DNA of 63,125 nucleotides, filler included, from Chrysochromulina tobinii (Eukaryota): the NCBI GenBank assembly GCA_001275005.1. It is 11 parts of 11 records of this genome, joined end to end, with 100 filler letters (N's around TTAATTAATTAA, not from the genome) between each part and the next. Parts side by side here need not be neighbours in the genome. Positions count along the whole stretch, not along the records: positions 1 to 10,146 come from JWZX01000078.1; 10 more parts are not named here. One strand, written 5' to 3'. Positions within the stretch are counted from its first letter, which is position 1; every line of letters starts with the position of its first letter. The translations under genes were made by a program, and so were the position numbers. Of the stretch, positions 1 through 9,322 are shown in pieces. Under the pieces are notes generated by a model, which did no database searches, was not told where the DNA came from, and was given only the letters and a program-made list of their open reading frames with translations.

Positions 1-2812
1 CAAATTCGTCCATCTGACCCTCAAGGCTGCGCTCGAGCTTTGCAACAAGCCCCGGCAGCACCGAAGCGCTGACGGGTGCAGCCGCCACCATGGCCTTAGC
101 CACCGGAGCCCTTGTTGTCGCCACCCCTTCGGCCGTCGCCCCGGCGGTCGCAGCCTCGTTCGTTAGCATGAAAAAGACGTCCTCGCTCTTCTGGTAACGC
201 GTTGTCTCGACATCTTTGTCAAGTTGGACGGCGCGAAAGTTGTGCACCCAGTTGGCGCCGTCAGGCTCGCCCGCGTTCGTGTTGATCCCCCAAAAGTCGG
301 CCACACGCTCGAGGCGCAGCACGATGCGTGCGAATGCGAGGCGACCCTGCAGCTGGGCCTCGACCTGCGTCTTCGAAAAGGTGGAGCCCAGGAGTGCAAT
401 GAGCAGATTAAGCAGCAGGATCAACGAGAAGAAGATGTACACGATGTACACGATGTAGAAGACGGAGAAATTGATCTTTTGGAAGAGACCGAGCGGCGCG
501 AGGTAGTCTGGGTGCAGGTTGAGGTCGAGTGGCTCGCCGGTGAAGCCTGCTATGAGGATGGCATTCGCCCCCGTGACCCAGTGCATCATCTGGTTCGACT
601 GAGGCAGCTTGCCAGCGGCCGGGTGATCGGGGTACACGGTGATCATCGTGAACACGAAGGCCGAAATGAAGATGACGAAGATGCACATGAAGACCATCAG
701 CTCGCCGCGCATCACCTGGCGCACCGAGAGCACGAAGATCGAGAGCGACGTGTACGGCTGCACGAACTGGTCGACAAAGGCGTAAAACTTGATCAGGAAG
801 CCTAACCCTAGAAAGAGCCAAATGAGCGGTTCGATGCCCTCCCACGCCGCTGCCTCGGCCCCCTCAATATTGTAGGTGACCACTGCCGCACTGCGTTGCG
901 CCATACGATCGGCGGTGTAGAAGGCGTCAAACTCGTCCAACCGGCGGGCCATGCTGGCGAGCGAGCCGTCGCCGCGGCTGCCGCCCTCGCCAACCGAGCC
1001 TCTGCCGTCGCCGTTGGTAAAATGGCTCGTGAGCAGCTGCACCACGTAGTTGAGCGCACCGAGCAGCGCCTGCAGAACCATGACGATTGTGTGCACGAAC
1101 CCCTCTGTCTCCGTGTCGGCGAGGTAGAGGCTGATGCCAAACGTGATGAGTGCACTCGCGAGCAGGTTGGCGCCTGAGGCGAAGTCGTTCATCCACTCCC
1201 ACGTGCGCCGAAGCACCTCAAGTGGAGGAACGCCGCTCTTAAAGTTGGTCGCGTAAAGCGCGCCAATGAAGAGCTCAACGGCGAGGAAAGCGCCGAGGAG
1301 CACGAGCAGCATGACGCAGTCGGCATGCGACCTCTTGGTCTCGCTTTCACTCTTAAGAGCGGTGCAGAGCATCACGGAGCTCATCACGACAGCCAAGTCG
1401 ATTGTGCGCATGACGAGGTGCATGTACCAGCCAAACTTGTCCCACTTTTGCACGAAGAGCGCAAAGATGAAGCCCTTCATAAAGTTGTCCAGGATGAATT
1501 CGACAGTCTCCGGCGACGCGTCGGACCGGGCGAGCACTTCCATCACGTTGGAGGCGCCGCGCCCAGACGAGTCGATCCCGTCGAGCGAGATCTGGTACTG
1601 CGTGACCGGGCCCCACACCCACAACGTCTTGGTGTGCTCCTTCTTCATAATGTGCTGGAACATGACGCGCAGACCGCGCTTGGCCGTGAGCTGCAGCGGA
1701 GTCATGCCATCCATATCAAGATGGATGAGGCGTCCACGCGTGCCCACGGTCAGCTGCGTGCTGTCGGCGCGTACCGCGGCCGGTAGCTCGCTCGTGAGGA
1801 AGTCGTACATTCCGCGCAGACCATTTACCGAGACTGCATGCAGAGGAAAATAGCCGATGATGTGGCCGCAGCTCGCACCGTCATTGAGCATGACCAGTTT
1901 CGTCTCGAGCATGCGTCGCACGAGAGTCCGCAGCCCGAAGACACATGCATAGCTGAGGGGCGTCTCGCCGTACCAGCGCATGGGCTCATCGTCGAAGAAG
2001 ACACCGAGAGCCTGCGTGTTCAGAAACGCGCGCGCATCCTCCAACGAAAAGTGCTGCAGCGCGAGCGCCACCATGCGGCACGCGAGCTCCTCGCGTCGGT
2101 TGGCGCACGCGATATGTAGGTGGCCCTCGCCCAAAAATGGCTGCCCGGCGTGGGTCTGTAGGAGCAGGCGTGGCTGCACCTCAAAGATGGCCATAGAAAG
2201 CTCGAGGCTTGCCTCTGTGTTGCAAACCATGATCGCATGCATCACGAACGCGCCCACCGGGTCTGCCACCTCGAGCAAGTGCACGTGCTTCGTCGCAATC
2301 TCGAGCATCACGAGCCGCAGGATGGCAAGCTGCGGACCAGTATAACCACCCGGATAGGTGTAGAGATTGAGTTTGCCTGCCTCGACAACATCGCCACCGA
2401 TGCGAAGCGCCGTGTCCCATTCGAGCGTGTGCTGCCGCTCGCTATTTAGCGTCACCACTGTTGGCAGCGTCGTGCAGTGGATACGCGCCGCCTTCAACAT
2501 ATTCATGCCCTCATCGAGAAGAGGCTCGTACACGTCCTCCTCGGAGGTGCGTACTCCGCTCATCAAGCTCTGCTGCCGAGTCAGAACTCTGTCCGTCGCT
2601 GATCGTGCTAGAGAAAGCGGGCGCGCCACTGTTGGAGTCGACGCCGACGGAATTACACTTGGAACCGCGCTAAAATCGGCAACATCCGCGTCGGACTTGC
2701 CCAGAGCGAGGGTGCTCTCTTTCTTGAGCAGAATCTTCGTCGTGCCGTCGACGACTGGACTGATGGCGCGCTTGTCGAGGCTGCCAGGCGGCGAGGCGCC
2801 GGCGAGCTCCAT
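1..2812 (-). CDS. TRPV-like cation channel (ankyrin repeats + TM/pore + TRP region), 3'-partial
   Basis: Manual minus-strand translation from ATG 2812. It is absent from the ORF track because it runs off the window edge. Ankyrin motifs FLGEGHLHIACANR, GVFFDDEPMRWYGETPLSYAC, GYFPLHAV and DGMTPLQL; TRPV linker LWVWGPVTQYQISLDGIDS; S6/TRP-box-like ILLLNLLIALLGSTF...GRLAFARIVLRLE. Confidence 0.88.
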   Translation of the reverse strand, partial: MELAGASPPGSLDKRAISPVVDGTTKILLKKESTLALGKSDADVADFSAVPSVIPSASTPTVARPLSLARSATDRVLTRQQSLMSGVRTSEEDVYEPLLDEGMNMLKAARIHCTTLPTVVTLNSERQHTLEWDTALRIGGDVVEAGKLNLYTYPGGYTGPQLAILRLVMLEIATKHVHLLEVADPVGAFVMHAIMVCNTEASLELSMAIFEVQPRLLLQTHAGQPFLGEGHLHIACANRREELACRMVALALQHFSLEDARAFLNTQALGVFFDDEPMRWYGETPLSYACVFGLRTLVRRMLETKLVMLNDGASCGHIIGYFPLHAVSVNGLRGMYDFLTSELPAAVRADSTQLTVGTRGRLIHLDMDGMTPLQLTAKRGLRVMFQHIMKKEHTKTLWVWGPVTQYQISLDGIDSSGRGASNVMEVLARSDASPETVEFILDNFMKGFIFALFVQKWDKFGWYMHLVMRTIDLAVVMSSVMLCTALKSESETKRSHADCVMLLVLLGAFLAVELFIGALYATNFKSGVPPLEVLRRTWEWMNDFASGANLLASALITFGISLYLADTETEGFVHTIVMVLQALLGALNYVVQLLTSHFTNGDGRGSVGEGGSRGDGSLASMARRLDEFDAFYTADRMAQRSAAVVTYNIEGAEAAAWEGIEPLIWLFLGLGFLIKFYAFVDQFVQPYTSLSIFVLSVRQVMRGELMVFMCIFVIFISAFVFTMITVYPDHPAAGKLPQSNQMMHWVTGANAILIAGFTGEPLDLNLHPDYLAPLGLFQKINFSVFYIVYIVYIFFSLILLLNLLIALLGSTFSKTQVEAQLQGRLAFARIVLRLERVADFWGINTNAGEPDGANWVHNFRAVQLDKDVETTRYQKSEDVFFMLTNEAATAGATAEGVATTRAPVAKAMVAAAPVSASVLPGLVAKLERSLEGQMDEF

Positions 2813-3403: not shown

Positions 3404-6013
3404 ATGCCGCCTTCTCTCCAAGGGACTTCATCGTACGATTATACCCAAGCCGCCTGCTATGCCGGCTTCAAGCCACACTCGACGCGAACCGAAAACACCT
3501 CTGTGTTCGTGTGCAACCTCCCCTTCAAAGTCTCCGAAGAGTGGTTGCAACGGCTCTTCCGCAAGTGTGGCGAGATCAAATCATTCAAGCTCGTCACCGA
3601 TCGCGAGAGCGGTAGGCACAAGGGCTTTGGTTTCGTTGAGTTCGTCACTACCGAAGGCGCGGCGACGGCCGTGCGCACCTTGGATAGCTATGAAGTTTGC
3701 AGCCGCTTGATGCGCGTGAGCTTTGCTGATCAGGACGCGTATAAACCCATAGCGGAAGTCGGCGGCAAATTCAGCGAGATGCGCACGGCGCGCGACGTGC
3801 TGCATGGCTTCGAGCTCCGCAAACGCCAGTTGCGCCCGAATTGTGTCGTCACCTGCTGGGGCACCCTGGGCAAGCTGGTACGCCAAAGCAGCGAGGAGTG
3901 TGAGTGGATGAAAGCGGAGCTGCGTCAGGGCAACGCGCTCGCGTCGTTGCTCGAGTCTACGCTACAGATGGTGCCGCGCCTCGAGCCAACGACGGTTGCG
4001 ACTGTAGCGTACGGGGCGGCGAGCGTGGTGACACAGTGTGGATTTGCAATGGGCAAGCACGTCTGGGAGGCGCTGGCGGCGAAGGGCTTGGACTTGGCCA
4101 ACCAACTCGATCCGCGAGGACAAGCGAATTTGGTGAATGCGTTCGCAAAGGCGAAGCACGCGGCACCTGCGCTGTTCGATGCGATCGCATCGGTCGCGCC
4201 GCCGCGTATGCGCGACTTCACGTTTCAGGAGCTTGCGAACACGGCGTGGGCGTACGCGACGGCGCAGCACGCGGCACCTGCGCTCCTCGATGCGATCGCG
4301 GCGGAGGCGGTGCCGCGTATGCGCGAATTCGAGCCGCAGACCCTGTCGAACACGGCGTGGGCGTACGTGACGTTGCAGCACGCGGCACCAGCGCTGCTCG
4401 ATGCGATCGCGGCCGAGGCGGCGCGGCAGGTGCGCGACTTCACGCCGCAGGGCCTGTCGACCACGGCGTGGGCGTACGCGAAGGCGAAGCACGCGGCACC
4501 GGCGCTATTTGATGCGATCGCGGCGGAGTCGAGGCGACAAGTGCGCAACTTCAATCCGCAGCAACTTGCGAACGCGGCGTGGGCGTACGCGACGGCGAAG
4601 CACGCAGCACCAGCGCTGCTCGATGCGATCGCGGCCGAGGCGGCGCGACAAGTGCGCGACTTCAATCCGCAGGGCCTGTCGAACACGGCGTGGGCGTACG
4701 CGACGGCGCAGCACGCGGCACCTGCGCTTCTCGATGCGATCGCGGCGGAGGCCGCGCGGCAGGTGCGCGACTTCAAGCCGCAGGAGCTCACGAACACGGC
4801 GTGGGCGTACGCGAAGGCGCAGCACGCGGCACCGGCGCTGCTCGATGCGATCGCGGCGGAGTCGAGGCGGCAAGTGCGCAACTTCAAGCCGCAGAACCTT
4901 GCGAACGCGGCGTGGTCGTACGCGACGTTGCAGCACGGGGCACCGGCGCTATTCGATGCGATCGCAGCAGAGGCGGCGCAGCGCTGGCGCGATTTCGCGC
5001 CGCAGGAGACTTCGAACTTGGCGTGGGCGTACGCGGCCGCCGACCACAGCTCGTGCGAGGTGCTCTTCGGCAGCGCAGCCTTTGTGGCCCACTGCGATGC
5101 AACGCAAGCTGCCTTCATGCATGTGTCCTTGGCCCAGCTCCACCAGTGGCAGCTTTGGCTCGAGGAGCGAGGCGCCGCGTGGCCCCGACTACCTTTGCCG
5201 CTCGCCGAGCGGTGCCACGCGGCTTTCGTCTCGAGGGCGCAGGGCGAACCCTCCAACCTGCAGCGTCATGTCGTCAGGGCGCTCAAGGCGCTCGGCCTCG
5301 AGCCCAAAGAGGAGGTGCTCACTCCGCAGGGCTACTCCCTCGATGCGGTGGTCCGCATCTCGGGCTGCGAGGTGGCGATCGAGGTCGACGGGCCCTTCCA
5401 CTTCGTGGGCCGTGATCACTGGGTAGGCTCACTGGCGGGCGTGCCTCCGGTTGGCGTGCATCTCACGGGCTCGACGGCGCTCAAGCGGCGGCAGCTGCGT
5501 GCGGCGGGCTGGGCACTGGTGTCGTTGCCGTACTGGGAGTGGAACACGTTCGAGTCCCATGACGCGCGATGTGCTGCATGGCAGCGGGAGCTTCTGGTGC
5601 GCGAGCTGGGGGCAGCAGTGCGCAGTGCTCGGCCTCACGCCATCAAGGATGGCGACACGTCATCAACAGAGCGATTCGTGTCGCGATTTGTGCGCGAGGA
5701 CGGCGATTCGCCGCTACATAAAAAGAGGAAGATGGAAGGGGGGATGTCGCAACTGCCAGTCGTGGGTCCGCCACCCAACAGCATCCTGTCGCAACTGCCA
5801 CCATCTGCGCAGATGCTGCGCAGCGTTCCGATGGCCCAGCATAGGTCGGGCGACGCGGGCACGCCCCGTGTAGCCAAAGGCCCCGCCAAGTGGGAATGCG
5901 GCCGGTGCACCTTCCTCAACAACGGTGCGCATACCGAGTGCGAGATGTGCGGCCGAGTGCGTGTTGTGCACATCACGAATCCATTACCGGCAGCATCATG
6001 CTCTCATCCATGA
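3404..6013 (+). CDS. RRM + 37-aa helical repeats (HPR/OPR/FASTK-like) + RAP domain + RanBP2-type zinc finger RNA-binding protein
   Basis: RNP motifs VFVCNLP and KGFGFVEF; 8 repeats of APALxDAIAAExxRxxRxFxPQxLxNxAWAYAxxxHA; RAP motifs GYSLD..AIEVDGPFHF..LKRRQL..GWALVSLPYWEW; WECGRCTFLN...CEMC. First ATG is at 3404, in the 3308 frame. Confidence 0.9.
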   Translation: MPPSLQGTSSYDYTQAACYAGFKPHSTRTENTSVFVCNLPFKVSEEWLQRLFRKCGEIKSFKLVTDRESGRHKGFGFVEFVTTEGAATAVRTLDSYEVCSRLMRVSFADQDAYKPIAEVGGKFSEMRTARDVLHGFELRKRQLRPNCVVTCWGTLGKLVRQSSEECEWMKAELRQGNALASLLESTLQMVPRLEPTTVATVAYGAASVVTQCGFAMGKHVWEALAAKGLDLANQLDPRGQANLVNAFAKAKHAAPALFDAIASVAPPRMRDFTFQELANTAWAYATAQHAAPALLDAIAAEAVPRMREFEPQTLSNTAWAYVTLQHAAPALLDAIAAEAARQVRDFTPQGLSTTAWAYAKAKHAAPALFDAIAAESRRQVRNFNPQQLANAAWAYATAKHAAPALLDAIAAEAARQVRDFNPQGLSNTAWAYATAQHAAPALLDAIAAEAARQVRDFKPQELTNTAWAYAKAQHAAPALLDAIAAESRRQVRNFKPQNLANAAWSYATLQHGAPALFDAIAAEAAQRWRDFAPQETSNLAWAYAAADHSSCEVLFGSAAFVAHCDATQAAFMHVSLAQLHQWQLWLEERGAAWPRLPLPLAERCHAAFVSRAQGEPSNLQRHVVRALKALGLEPKEEVLTPQGYSLDAVVRISGCEVAIEVDGPFHFVGRDHWVGSLAGVPPVGVHLTGSTALKRRQLRAAGWALVSLPYWEWNTFESHDARCAAWQRELLVRELGAAVRSARPHAIKDGDTSSTERFVSRFVREDGDSPLHKKRKMEGGMSQLPVVGPPPNSILSQLPPSAQMLRSVPMAQHRSGDAGTPRVAKGPAKWECGRCTFLNNGAHTECEMCGRVRVVHITNPLPAASCSHP
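4163..5050 (+). repeat. 111-bp coding tandem repeat x8 (37-aa units)
   Basis: Eight near-identical units seen in both DNA and protein. Confidence 0.9.
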
Positions 6014-6581
6014 TGGACCTTCTGCTTTCGAGCGCTGGTGTGCCTGCGTTCGCGTTCTGCGCCGACGCGGTGAAGGGTGAGCAGTTCGGTGCCGCGCACC
6101 CGCCGCACGAGAATCTTCCATGATCTCCCGTGTCCAGATCCGAGAAACCCACCCTAGTCAGTAATAGTGCAGCGCGGCGCGCCGGCTCGCCACGAGGCGA
6201 GTGGAATATAAGCATCGTCTCTCAATATGAGGAACTTGAACAAAAGCTACCGTAAATACCGGATGTGTAGGATTGCCTTTTAATATGCTGCCTATATCCT
6301 ACGGAGATTTACTACCGGTAGACCCATTGACGAAACCCACTGATTGCCTAATAAAGAGATGACGAAACTTAGCGAGGTCAGTGACGAAACTTCGACGAAC
6401 CTTTTCCCGCACTTTCAGTGTCAGACACTCCAGTGTGACCCTTCGACTCTCAAACCTCGGCCCGGGGGGGTCTCGGATTTTGGTCCAAATACTTTGGTTG
6501 ACCTCGGAGGTCAGCTTCGAACCTTGGACCAAGGGGGGTGTTTTCCCGGAAACGATACTGAATTTCCTGGACTCGCTTCAG

Positions 6582-6666
6582 ACCCGACCCGACCCGACCC
6601 GACCTCGACCTCGGAGCCCGATTTTCATATCCTATCCCCCGACCCGACCCCCTCCGACCCGACCCC
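6582..6666. repeat. GACCC pentamer repeat tract at the end of the small-gene array
   Basis: gacccgacccgacccgacccgacctcgacc ... gacccgaccccctccgacccgacccc. Confidence 0.7.
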
Positions 6667-6703
6667 ATACTGGAGAGTGGAGACGCGCCGTGTTGGGCGC
6701 TTT

Positions 6704-6989
6704 TCATATCGTATCTCGGTAGCCCTCAAATCCACGCCTTCCTAACAGAACTAAGACGAGACGCGCCCATCTTAAAGGGTTCAACATGAACCTAATTGTG
6801 TTGAAGTAGTGTCCCATCCCGAGTACCATCCCCCTCCTTAAAGCATCATTACTGAACCACATAGTTGACATTCTCCCCCAATCTGCATGTTCATCTGCAA
6901 TCCATCCTCGTTGAGAATACCTTAATGGTGGTGGTCGGGGTGCTAATTGCATCGGAAGGGGGTGATGTACGCTCGCGCCCCGCGCCCAT
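6704..6989 (-). CDS. Small hypothetical protein, probable N-myristoylation start MGAGAS if a +1 base in the C4 run (6978-6981) is removed
   Basis: ATG 6989 lies 19 nt after the junction motif. Removing one G joins it to ORF 6704..6952. The stop abuts the hairpin repeat. Confidence 0.5.
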
Positions 6990-7051
6990 GTCGTTTCACA
7001 GTAAGTTTAGAAATTACCGGTGTGACGCGCCGTGTTGGGCGCTTTTGGTGG

Positions 7052-7426
7052 CTAATGCAAGGTTAATCCCAGATCCAAGTACAAGATCCTTCGAATGATC
7101 CGTAAAGGAATCCAAATCAATTTTCCTGTTATTCGTCGAAAGGCTAAAACCCAGCCCATGGGATTCCCTGGGAAATGAATAAGGGAAACGAACCTTACTC
7201 TCACGCGTCTGAGGTGTTCTTGCCAAGGAATGCGTCGATCCATCAACATCTGCATGTCAAAAGAGACATTTGGCTCCTGTATTTCCTCAATCATAGCAGC
7301 ACGCCTCTGTTGACTAATCTGAACCTCGTATTGAGCTCCTGGTCTCAAACCATCTTCGACCCGGGGCCGCCTGCGTGAGTCTATCACGTTCCTCCAGAAT
7401 CGCCTTTTAACTGGCCCGCGCGCCAT
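7052..7426 (-). CDS. Small Arg-rich hypothetical protein (cassette 2)
   Basis: ATG 7426 lies 18 nt after the junction motif. The TAG at 7052 is followed 5 nt later by the AAAA-hairpin repeat. Confidence 0.55.
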   Translation of the reverse strand: MARGPVKRRFWRNVIDSRRRPRVEDGLRPGAQYEVQISQQRRAAMIEEIQEPNVSFDMQMLMDRRIPWQEHLRRVRVRFVSLIHFPGNPMGWVLAFRRITGKLIWIPLRIIRRILYLDLGLTLH

Positions 7427-7478
7427 CGACAATCTAACTTGTTCAGAAATTACCGGTGTGACGCGCCGTGTTGACCAT

Positions 7479-7745
7479 TTAAAAGCCTTCGTTAAGATAG
7501 TCTGAGTTGCGCATCCATCCAGGACGTTGTCGACCAGGTGGGGGGTTATTTAACGCCCTACTAAACATCGCCCTAGCTACTCTCCTTATGACTACGAGGT
7601 AGCGTATGATGTGTCGAAATAATGGTAACCAACCATGTGTACCACGCCTCAGTTGTTGCATTCGCAAGCGCTGAGGAAGAGTGTCAATTGCTGAGCGTCG
7701 CATTAGAAGTGGCATGGATTTTGAGCGTCGCATTAGAGGTGGCAT
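7479..7745 (-). CDS. Small Arg-rich hypothetical protein (cassette 3) with a 30-bp N-terminal duplication
   Basis: MPPLMRRSKS/MPLLMRRSAI duplication; the TAA is followed by the junction repeat. Confidence 0.55.
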   Translation of the reverse strand: MPPLMRRSKSMPLLMRRSAIDTLPQRLRMQQLRRGTHGWLPLFRHIIRYLVVIRRVARAMFSRALNNPPPGRQRPGWMRNSDYLNEGF

Positions 7746-7786
7746 GGATTTTCACACTGATTTTCACACTACCTCAGAAAGTTACT

Positions 7787-8299
7787 ATGGGCGCCCTTTT
7801 TTCCAGATTAAAGGTGTTAAGAATGTCACGACAACTCATACCTAGAGTGTCACGTCAAGGTACGTGGAACAATGCATTTATCAACGTGGTGGAAGACATA
7901 CTTGACGAGATGCCCATTTCTGGCAATCTAAGTGCATATATTGTGTCGTGTATGCGTGTAAAAACTTTTTTCGTGTGCGGAATGGCGACGTGGCTAGCCG
8001 GCAGGGCGTGCTGGGTGGGAGCTGGACGCAACTTGGCTGGCTTGTCGATACGGCGGCGGTACAGGCGACAGTGGTGCACATGGGCAGCACCCAGCAGGGA
8101 CCGCGGCATCTTGGTTGGCGGCGTGGGCGGGGGCATGGGCGTGACAGCGGCAAGTTGTTGGCGGCCGTGGCCGCGTTTGTGGCTCTCAACGGCCGGCTTG
8201 GCGGCCGTAGCCGCGTTTGTGGCTCTCAACCGAACACTCAACGGTCGGCTTTGGGCTTGGCGTGAATCAGCTGCACAGTGTCTGATCCTGCCTTTTTGA
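7787..8299 (+). CDS. Divergent hypothetical ORF starting MGALFS (MGxxxS motif)
   Basis: The ATG lies inside the fourth junction motif. The 3' half may be spurious read-through into GC-rich DNA. Confidence 0.3.
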   Translation: MGALFSRLKVLRMSRQLIPRVSRQGTWNNAFINVVEDILDEMPISGNLSAYIVSCMRVKTFFVCGMATWLAGRACWVGAGRNLAGLSIRRRYRRQWCTWAAPSRDRGILVGGVGGGMGVTAASCWRPWPRLWLSTAGLAAVAAFVALNRTLNGRLWAWRESAAQCLILPF

Positions 8300-9322
8300 A
8301 CGGTATGAGCCCGTCACCAACACCATTGATTCCTACGGGCGTCATGGATGCCGGTCATCAAGTGCAGACGATGGACGAGTCAGATGCCTTGCGGTTGTGT
8401 GGCGATTGGCTATATGGCTTAAGGGGGGGCAGCGAAGCGCGTCATGCGTTTGTGGGACCAGGCAAACCAGGGGACGAGGGGATACTGAAGGACACTGCGA
8501 CCTTGACGCACGCGCACGGCCATTTCGACATAGATGGCCCGAGTTTCCGTCTTTCCGAGGCGCCTCAGGCTGAGCTGGTGGGCTCTTTTCCATTCACATG
8601 CTTTTGACGCAGCTCGGCATCGCTGAGCTCCTCTGCGCGGATCTGGCATCTGCGACATGATCTGCAATCTGCTCACGCCGCGAGCTCCATCAGTGCAGTG
8701 GCGGGCTTCACCTTACATGTTCATGCACAAGTCGCCGTGTCGCGCATGCTTTTATTACGTGGCGTTAAGCCATATTGTCTACTGAGCATGCGGACCTATT
8801 AAGGACTTCGGTCTATCCGGCCCGGTATCCGTCTTGCGTTATTATAAACGAACAGTATCAGTAACAAAAAGCCTGTATTATCCGAATATGAGTAGACTTT
8901 AGTTCACGTGCGATCTACACCACCGCGGCGCTATCGCGCCGCGGGGCTCGTCTAGTTTTTGTATAGAGAGACGAAAAGAAAAGCGGGTCCCCACAGCCCT
9001 CGCCCCCTGGGCCCATATCTTTTGCAGTCCATTGCTGTGCGCGCGCGCCGGGTCGAGAGGTACGTGACAGAGACGCCATGGCGTGCTCATGTTAGCGCTG
9101 GCCCTCATCTGGCGTGCGCGCTGGCCCTTACGGCCAACTCGGGAGCCCGGCCGGGAGGCAGCCCTCGTCGAGCATGGAATTGGCCCTTGAGTCGAAGCGC
9201 CCTCGCGGAGCATGGCATGCTTCGCACCTTTGGGGACTCGGGGGTCTGACAATTTCGCTCCGATTGCGTGTCAGGGAACTCGTCGGCCGACCCTCGCGCG
9301 CCGCTGACACCGCGCAGAACAC

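What the first reader, a model, noticed from the sequence alone, without database searches (positions are those of the whole stretch)
6682..7800. Cassette-like array of tiny genes joined by a conserved terminator+promoter junction
Seen: a visibly more AT-rich, intronless island holds three tandem minus-strand ORFs (88-124 aa, Arg-rich). Each stop codon is followed within 0-6 nt by the same repeat. In sense it reads AAAA-GCGCC-caacac-GGCGC-GTCACACC-GGTAATTTCT, a GC hairpin plus a motif. The 7445-7473 copy keeps only the right arm of the hairpin. The TTTCT end lies 19, 18 and 18 nt before the next ATG, the last after collapsing an exact 12-nt duplication (gattttcacact x2). The final copy (6682-6704) keeps the hairpin but lacks the TTTCT half, and no convincing ORF follows it. 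Inference: this is either a modular terminator/promoter grammar of a compact endogenous virus (PLV/virophage/NCLDV-like; hairpins at gene 3' ends are established for Mimiviridae and virophages) or a recombination-built, integron-like gene-cassette array in a eukaryote. No hallmark viral gene is visible here.
Basis: partly seen in the sequence, partly recalled or inferred. Interest (0 to 1): 0.85.

Follow-up and report, generated by a model that had tools for sequence, protein, structure and literature searches.

The report
Shuffled gene cassettes from algal virus
Three tiny genes spaced by a repeated 50-letter signal are part of a library of at least 22 small gene families that occur in changing orders and at many chromosome sites; the library likely comes from the end of a small algal virus, and would be a eukaryotic counterpart of the gene-swapping cassettes known from T4-like phages.

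Summary
The repeat is real and is not confined to this window. A 21-nt piece finds 37 metagenome stretches (36 real, about 23 distinct loci). The same junction there separates at least 22 families of 74-284 aa Arg-rich orphan genes in variable order and orientation. Arrays usually end in a conserved ~430-bp arm that stops at ATATAG and has many different host flanks. One array with the junction and shared cassettes adjoins genes of a gamadvirus-like small DNA virus (mriyavirus; NCLDV relatives of haptophytes). The junction's TTTCTRA half lies upstream of 24 of 42 conserved genes of such viruses. Best reading: a terminator-plus-promoter unit that also serves as the homology patch for cassette swapping (like T4 PeSLs), at a viral end that inserts one-ended at ATATA sites. 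Promoter and terminator function, the recombining enzyme and the proteins' roles are inferred, not shown. Corrections: the window's third gene is frameshifted, a fourth divergent gene is cut off at the left end, and the hairpin has little covariation. I found no description in print.

The parts
6292..6681 (-). Conserved terminal arm: GGGTC/CCGAC-rich stretch, three TTTCGTCA repeats (6389, 6367, 6335), ending in ATATA-G at 6297-6292; likely the viral end or origin
   Evidence: 84-91% identical arms in other loci with unlike flanks. In each of 4 DNA runs 7 contigs leave the window at 6292 with unlike sequence, and summed depth is about 30-70 times the flank's, not a copy number
6682..6715 (-). 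Last junction: T motif (AAAA-GCGCC-CAACAC-GGCGC-GTC) with its GATATG lead-in; no promoter half follows
   Evidence: 11 of 61 unique junctions are followed by the arm
6704..6989 (-). Cassette gene 3 (family C, 94 aa when intact, N-terminus MGAGAS); frameshifted in the window by one extra G near 6980
   Evidence: intact in L011, with relatives in L005/L034, L030, L037; 5 homologs among 8 candidates, all unnamed or hypothetical
6990..7046 (-). Full junction: T motif 7046-7024, promoter-like GGTAATTTCT 7018-7009, TGTGAAA 7000-6994
7052..7426 (-). Cassette gene 2 (family A, 124 aa), distantly related to family B; weak SH3/Tudor-like barrel hint only
   Evidence: 11 homologs among 14 candidates, none named beyond hypothetical; A-B blastp E 6e-6; model pLDDT 54, best VIA Z 4.2
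7427..7473 (-). Junction lacking the left stem arm, with full promoter-like half
7479..7745 (-). Cassette gene 1 (88 aa, family J2); identical in L011, no other member found in the fetched loci
   Evidence: single-copy depth in 4 DNA runs
7746..7786 (.). Divergent promoter-like region with an exact 12-nt duplication (7747-7770)
   Evidence: the same region without the duplication precedes another cassette in L001 and L025
7787..7936 (+). First 50 codons of a fourth, divergent cassette gene (120 aa in L001), cut off at the element's ragged left end
7937..7941 (-). ATATA at the left junction, the same 5-mer as at the arm end (target site)
   Evidence: uninterrupted copies of the flanking repeat run on at 7937 into the sequence that follows the arm in L011/L019
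7937..8797 (.). Separate multi-copy host repeat into which the element inserted (flank, not part of the element)
   Evidence: depth about 5 times the single-copy flank; 99% shared with L011/L019

Best explanation
The array is a set of small-gene cassettes that occur in variable order next to a conserved terminal arm at many host sites; it is likely the end of a gamadvirus-like algal virus, its 50-bp junction is predicted to act as terminator plus promoter and likely also as the homology patch through which cassettes are swapped, and the copies likely arise by one-ended insertion at ATATA sites. Shown: at least 22 gene families between the same junction in changing order and orientation; the T half follows stop codons and the P half precedes start codons, each also without the other; P matches a motif upstream of conserved gamadvirus-like genes; one array adjoins such viral genes; the arm ends precisely at ATATA(G) and left ends fall inside cassette genes. 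Inferred: homologous or single-strand-annealing recombination within the junction (viral PDDEXK/YqaJ nuclease, SSB and RuvC, or host repair) does the swapping. Also inferred: the viral HUH endonuclease nicks the end and an ATATA target and transfers a strand of variable length, as in one-ended IS91/Helitron events, and the proteins are fast-evolving accessory effectors expressed when viral transcription factors are present.
For: 36 real of 37 stretches. 49 distinct proteins in 22 families. 35 neighbour pairs read by hand from 19 arrays, with reciprocal orders A/E, E/F and E/H. Culture arrays repeat across separate assemblies yet give the same cassette different neighbours. In 13 paired comparisons identity breaks mostly within the junction, at different positions. 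Motif WTTCYRA within 45 nt upstream of 24 of 42 conserved viral ORFs, against 1.7% of random windows and 15 of 111 non-conserved ORFs. L003/L033 link the junction and shared families J, I, P129, Q255, N120 to a PDDEXK/YqaJ gene (69% to L041) and three more conserved viral genes. Relatives carry NCLDV capsid, A22 resolvase, VLTF3 and A32. Two marine virus contigs end exactly at TATATAG and a third runs through it as a palindrome. ATATA on both sides in L011 and L034, at a background of 1.7e-4 per position. Pooled dN/dS below 1 in 10 of 12 families.
Against: No capsid, HUH or other recombinase gene was seen on any array-bearing contig; the contigs are partial and the motif search was crude. The window-type arm has no significant similarity to the marine virus arm beyond the end motif (57 of 300 shuffles score as high) and only marginal similarity to the L003 arm (score 27, shuffled maximum 26). 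No IMG/VR contig carries the array, the arm motif or cassette genes. ATATA flanks are clear in only 2 of 5 left ends examined, partial in 1 (L035), and not seen in L013 or L007. The 45 of 49 figure for P upstream of cassettes is circular, since most were found by that motif. dN/dS is only 0.2-0.8, above 1 in families A and H, and pairs are not independent. RNA contigs are short, shallow and show no transcript ends. 11 distinct sequences join directly before the TGATCC lead-in, a sharp edge that plain homologous recombination does not explain well.
Confidence: 0.58

Rival explanations
1. A true site-specific cassette system (eukaryotic integron or shufflon): one enzyme, such as one of the two gamadvirus HUH proteins or an unseen tyrosine recombinase, recognises the GCGCC-N6-GGCGC dyad or the TGATCC edge and excises, inverts and inserts cassettes.
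For: Core positions are mostly 90-100% conserved including the loop, then conservation drops after GTC. 33-bp empty units (3 of 61). 11 different sequences joined at one edge. A head-to-head fusion at the loop in L037.
Against: Marker bases travel with the upstream cassette in some cases and the downstream one in others, and chimeras occur inside ORFs and leaders. No recombinase found. Each cassette has its own promoter-like motif.
Confidence: 0.16
2. The arm-plus-array is a non-autonomous satellite or transposon in its own right (transpoviron- or MITE-like) that borrows gamadvirus promoters and enzymes, trades genes with the virus, and sometimes sits at its end, rather than being a broken-off viral end.
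For: Dozens of arm copies with host flanks and no core viral gene. Insertions into other cassettes (L007, L029). The window-type arm differs strongly from the L003 arm. Free marine viruses have variable terminal genes but no repeated junction.
Against: No conserved left end exists. In L003/L033 cassette-family genes are interleaved with a conserved viral gene before the first junction.
Confidence: 0.16
3. Only the ordinary gene grammar of a compact virus; the host copies are decaying fossils and much of the apparent shuffling is short-read misassembly at the repeat.
For: Lake contigs are 1-2 kb and often end at junctions. Several host copies have frameshifts (window gene 3; B in L034; last cassette of L013). 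The window itself joins the L011 array to a different arm tip.
Against: The junction is shorter than a read. Culture arrays are the same across 2-8 fetched stretches from separate assemblies yet differ in order. Related viruses use P without any 50-bp repeat.
Confidence: 0.07
4. Copies arise by retro-insertion (target-primed, 5'-truncated, short target duplication) of arm-containing transcripts.
For: One precise end, one ragged end and a 5-6 bp repeat at both sides.
Against: No poly(A) or simple-repeat tail; arrays include divergent genes; the end motif matches the end of free virus contigs.
Confidence: 0.03

Closest known systems
PeSL promoter/terminator cassettes of T4-like phages (PMC2839356, passages; PMC4122927, part 1 of 3 of the text)
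   Same: A repeated composite terminator-promoter between small orphan genes in a hypervariable region; recombination between repeats swaps or deletes genes, with no dedicated recombinase identified.
   Different: Here the setting is a eukaryotic virus-derived element in a host genome; the promoter is not sigma-70; arrays sit at one terminus, include inversions and are copied to many chromosomal sites; mini-circles are shown for PeSLs but untested here.
Gamadviridae / Mriyaviricetes, 'NCLDV-like dwarf viruses' (PMC11253617 and 10.1101/2022.07.28.501842, passages)
   Same: Linked PDDEXK/YqaJ gene and conserved neighbours; relatives with capsid, A32, VLTF3 and RuvC; haptophyte hosts and endogenous copies are reported; shared upstream motif.
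   Different: The passages seen mention no promoter motif, cassette array, end motif or integration mechanism. The name rests on gene content, as no hit was labelled PEV.
Bacterial integrons (features recalled; compared in PMC2839356 passage)
   Same: Tandem single-gene cassettes of unrelated orphans between repeats, variable order, empty units.
   Different: No IntI seen, no long attC-type hairpin, each cassette has its own promoter-like motif, both orientations occur.
IS91 / Helitron one-ended rolling-circle transposition (PMC4778049, passages)
   Same: One precise end, variable other end, capture of adjacent genes, HUH enzyme expected.
   Different: No TC...CTRR termini or A/T target; the same ATATA at both sides; the enzyme would be a viral replication protein.
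Mimivirus/Sputnik hairpin polyadenylation signal and late promoters shared with virophages (PMC6723459, passages)
   Same: A palindrome after stop codons and a virus-wide upstream motif.
   Different: Here one fixed 23-nt sequence with a 5-bp stem is repeated almost exactly; poly(A) at it is untested.

Membership tests
Gamadviridae (Mriyaviricetes) | PDDEXK (YqaJ-like) nuclease and conserved neighbouring genes | tested here: met
   In L003/L033 beside an array: PF09588 E 4.7e-20, 69% to L041, three further conserved genes. Not in the window itself.
Gamadviridae (Mriyaviricetes) | NCLDV-type capsid, A32 ATPase, VLTF3, RuvC | tested here: inconclusive
   Present in the relatives L046 and L041; not on any array-bearing contig held, all of which are partial.
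Gamadviridae (Mriyaviricetes) | HUH endonuclease | tested here: inconclusive
   A crude motif search of 8 partial virus loci found no convincing HUH; the regions that encode it were probably not held.
Gamadviridae (Mriyaviricetes) | 35-45 kb genome; capsid phylogeny with PEV | not testable with these tools
   No whole genome; most virus records not held; no named PEV sequence returned.
PeSL-type cassette system | Repeated composite terminator plus promoter between orphan genes | tested here: met
   As anatomy: T then P in 39 of 61 junctions; T follows stops, P precedes starts. Function is not assayed.
PeSL-type cassette system | Gene exchange with crossovers inside the repeat | tested here: met
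PeSL-type cassette system | Excised mini-circles | not testable with these tools
   Only contigs were available; the joints have single-copy depth and fit other chromosomal arrays.
PeSL-type cassette system | T4-like phage genome with sigma-70 early promoter | tested here: not met
   Eukaryotic flanks (RRM/FAST/RAP gene) and NCLDV-related neighbours. It works like a PeSL but is not one.
Integron | Adjacent tyrosine integrase | tested here: inconclusive
   None recognised among long ORFs of the long loci (output partly cut; no family scan of all of them).
Integron | Promoterless cassettes read from one promoter, one orientation (recalled) | tested here: not met
   P motif before each cassette; divergent and convergent pairs.
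Integron | Structure-conserved, sequence-variable attC hairpin (recalled) | tested here: not met
   Sequence-conserved 5-bp stem, loop exact in 56 of 61, one compensatory change.
Helitron / IS91 rolling-circle elements | One precise end and a variable other end | tested here: met
Helitron / IS91 rolling-circle elements | 5'-TC and CTRR-3' ends between A and T, no target repeat | tested here: not met
   End is ATATA(G) with varied next base; ATATA on both sides in 2 loci.
Mimivirus hairpin rule | Polyadenylation at the hairpin | not testable with these tools
   RNA runs were contigs only.

The most novel reading that the evidence does not exclude
A eukaryotic integron-like system: a virus-encoded HUH enzyme both shuffles single-gene cassettes at the junction and scatters end-anchored arrays through the algal genome. 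There they form a reshuffled, virus-inducible arsenal of small effectors, several likely myristoylated, switched on by an incoming gamadvirus or giant virus and used against it or against host silencing.
Probability: 0.15. Interest if true: 0.94.

Novelty: new variant of a known kind. Interest (0 to 1): 0.8.

Why it matters
Cassette-style shuffling of whole single-gene transcription units is known from phages and integrons. My searches found no report of it in a eukaryotic DNA virus or its endogenous copies. The finding also gives testable handles on open questions about mriyaviruses: a candidate family-wide promoter motif, a candidate genome end or integration site (TATATAG), a way for an integrase-less virus to enter host chromosomes, and a library of over 20 orphan protein families likely to act in alga-virus conflict.

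Tried and rejected
Own genome not held. Junction and arm patterns in IMG/VR: 0 hits; 3 single hits judged chance. Cassette proteins Q255 and G in IMG/VR: none confirmed. Handles: 1 of 5 records held in each. L006 was dropped as a chance match inside an unrelated gene. Duplicate assemblies were dropped before counting junctions: 13 loci, 11. Pfam: no cassette protein reached a curated cutoff (3 cassette frames plus one overlapping frame, 26 proteins, 14); weak hits such as PP1c_bdg and nec1 were not accepted. PHROGs 0 of 14. PDB sequences 0. Atlas gave no usable hit for families A and B. Rfam gave only two sub-threshold hits outside the element. Folds: family A pLDDT 54, best viral Foldseek E 0.08, best VIA Z 4.2, inconclusive; family B pLDDT 40, not searched. 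Chromodomain and IQ-motif resemblances were recalled by eye and not supported by Pfam. The profile search of 1.84 billion representatives was still queued, so distant relatives are untested. A reversed D/F order noted early was dropped because the last cassette of L008 is not clearly F. RNA runs X12-X17 hold 4-7% of words; four were laid, and uncovered parts prove nothing. The tandem-unit refutation was tested: window genes 1-3 show no mutual blastp similarity. Earlier scan findings: nothing. Literature searches that listed no description of such an array. Supplements of the cited papers were not opened; the genome maps and Table S1 of PMC11253617 could bear on novelty.

Full report
OBSERVATION. 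The repeat is present as described: three exact copies of the 14-nt core on the minus strand, the two upstream ones sharing 33 nt at 97%, in a 48% GC island within 62% GC sequence. Genes 1 and 2 are 88 and 124 aa. The ATG at 6989 gives only 32 aa because of one extra G near 6980; L011 is otherwise identical from 7936 to 6372 and has an intact 94-aa gene. Whether the extra G is a mutation or an assembly error is open. The flank is eukaryotic (an RRM/FAST/RAP gene). A haptophyte host is inferred from the reported host range of the related viruses, not tested.

A CASSETTE LIBRARY. A 21-nt piece of the junction matched 37 metagenome stretches. One, L006, is a chance match; after dropping 13 duplicate assemblies about 23 distinct loci remain. 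They hold 61 unique junction contexts. 39 are followed by the promoter-like half, 11 by a conserved arm, 3 by a 33-bp empty unit and 8 by something else. Between or beside junctions lie 49 distinct proteins in 22 families, 74-284 aa, median 107, 14% Arg; five of the 22 were taken from the virus-adjacent array L003, two of them upstream of any junction. None reaches a Pfam cutoff or matches PHROGs. Order varies: 35 neighbour pairs in 19 arrays, read by hand from the maps, include reciprocal orders A/E, E/F and E/H. Cassettes also occur inverted, in divergent and convergent pairs. Misassembly is an unlikely explanation: culture arrays are the same across separate assemblies, yet family F sits between E and D in L007 and between B and C in L034, and C follows A here but F in L034. 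Those assemblies may be of one strain, so they are not independent biological samples. Pooled dN/dS is below 1 in 10 of 12 families (0.2-0.8) and above 1 in A and H; pairs are not independent. Four otherwise unrelated families begin MG(A/S/T)GASV with synonymous differences, which resembles the recalled N-myristoylation motif.

THE TWO HALVES. The T half (AAAA-GCGCC-CAACAC-GGCGC-GTC) lies within 36 nt of the stop in 36 of 49 genes, including where a reversed gene or the arm follows. The P half lies 14-35 nt before the ATG in 45 of 49 genes, but most genes were found by that motif, so this count is circular. The independent test is in the viruses: WTTCYRA lies within 45 nt upstream of 24 of 42 ORFs conserved among seven gamadvirus-like loci, against 1.7% of random windows and 15 of 111 non-conserved ORFs. 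T was not found in those virus loci. Support for an RNA hairpin is weak: 47 of 61 stems pair fully, one change is compensatory, and the loop is exact in 56 of 61. A protein-bound DNA dyad fits as well. RNA contigs from four runs touch the arm and pieces of all three genes at low depth and show no ends.

VIRAL ORIGIN. L003, L015 and L033 carry the junction, families J and I, and genes (P129, N120, Q255) whose relatives occur in other arrays. These adjoin a PDDEXK/YqaJ gene, 69% identical to that of virus contig L041, and three more conserved genes. Relatives carry NCLDV capsid, A22/RuvC, VLTF3 and A32 on contigs of up to 39 kb, the gene set described for gamadviruses (PMC11253617, passages). 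Endogenous copies are reported in haptophytes (10.1101/2022.07.28.501842 and 10.1101/2025.04.19.649669, passages). No hit carried a PEV label, so the name rests on gene content. No capsid or HUH gene was seen on an array-bearing contig.

THE ARM AND THE ENDS. Most arrays end in a ~430-bp arm with TTTCGTCA repeats. It stops at ATATAG in 6 and ATATAA in 1 of 8 loci examined; L003 did not match the pattern. Flanks differ, 7 contigs per DNA run leave the window at 6292, and summed depth is about 30-70 times the flank's (not a copy number). Two marine virus contigs end exactly at TATATAG after small variable genes, and a third runs through it as a 14-bp palindrome into more virus-like genes. Beyond that motif the marine arm is not significantly like the window's (57 of 300 shuffles reach the score), and the L003 arm only marginally so. 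Left ends are ragged: here a divergent gene (whole in L001) is cut at codon 50. In L011 and L034 ATATA stands on both sides; for L011 the empty site is seen as a loose end. L035 shares CTATAT; L013 and L007 show no such flank. The window's own right flank differs from L011's, and all 12 substitutions between them lie in the last 80 nt of the arm. The window has therefore either swapped tips or been misassembled across the arm.

MECHANISM. Thirteen paired comparisons show identity between shared cassettes breaking mostly inside the junction, at different places, and chimeras also occur in leaders and ORFs. This fits homologous or annealing-type recombination at a 50-bp patch, the mechanism proposed and supported by mini-circles for T4-like PeSLs (PMC2839356, passages; PMC4122927, part 1 of 3). 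The virus encodes a YqaJ-like nuclease, an SSB-like protein and RuvC that could do this (inference). Against it, 11 different sequences join just before one TGATCC edge, which keeps a site-specific rival alive. One precise end, a ragged other end and a target resembling the end fit one-ended HUH transfer as described for IS91 and Helitrons (PMC4778049, passages). All mriyaviruses are reported to encode a HUH protein, but its role here is inferred. The function of the proteins is unknown at the fold level. I take them to be accessory conflict effectors because they are small, variable, terminal and individually expressed. Induction by a helper virus is an analogy to virophage promoters (PMC6723459, passages). 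PMC12945077 (passages) added nothing on these elements.

VERDICT. A real, actively reshuffled cassette system tied to a gamadvirus-like virus and spread through an algal genome. It works like a PeSL array, is not a phage PeSL, and fails two integron-defining features. Searches listed no description of it; supplements were not seen, and most subscription papers are not in the library. Novelty: new variant of a known kind. Interest 0.8.

Noticed in passing
window 8902-8960: GC hairpin followed by CTAG on the + strand, like a Helitron-type MITE end; very high summed depth in DNA runs and a diverged copy in L019.
   Followed up: no
window 3404-6013 (+): Intronless 869-aa gene with RRM, seven 37-aa FAST/DUF1601 repeats, a RAP domain and a RanBP zinc finger, directly beyond the arm end.
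   Followed up: partly
window, 10 gaps from 10147 to 56926: Contigs are joined by N44-linker-N44 spacers, so the window is a concatenation; the element lies in the first 10,146-bp piece.
   Followed up: yes
L049 and L051 ends; L050 14830-14860: Marine gamadvirus-like contigs end at TATATAG; in L050 it is the centre of a 14-bp palindrome with small Arg-rich genes converging on it from both sides. Candidate genome end, origin or attachment site of gamadviruses.
   Followed up: partly
L041-L049 intergenic regions: WTTCYRA upstream of most conserved gamadvirus-like genes; candidate family-wide promoter, not mentioned in the passages of PMC11253617 seen.
   Followed up: yes
L010 1120-1163, L032 1110-1170, L050/L051/L055 arms: TTAGGG telomere-like runs inside terminal arms of both freshwater elements and marine viruses.
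   Followed up: no
L029 1-480 (reoriented), L007 1000-1050 and beyond 3165, L016/L017 ends: Other arm types with TTTCGTC repeats; the one in L029 also ends in GATATAG and sits inside an E-family gene, and the L007 arm is followed by part of another cassette. Insertions nest in one another.
   Followed up: partly
L008 451-1302 (-): An unusual 284-aa acidic, Gly/Ser-rich gene within an array, unlike the basic cassettes; no Pfam match.
   Followed up: no
window 1-2800 (-): Long reading frame whose sequence looks by eye like an ankyrin-containing ion channel; not searched.
   Followed up: no
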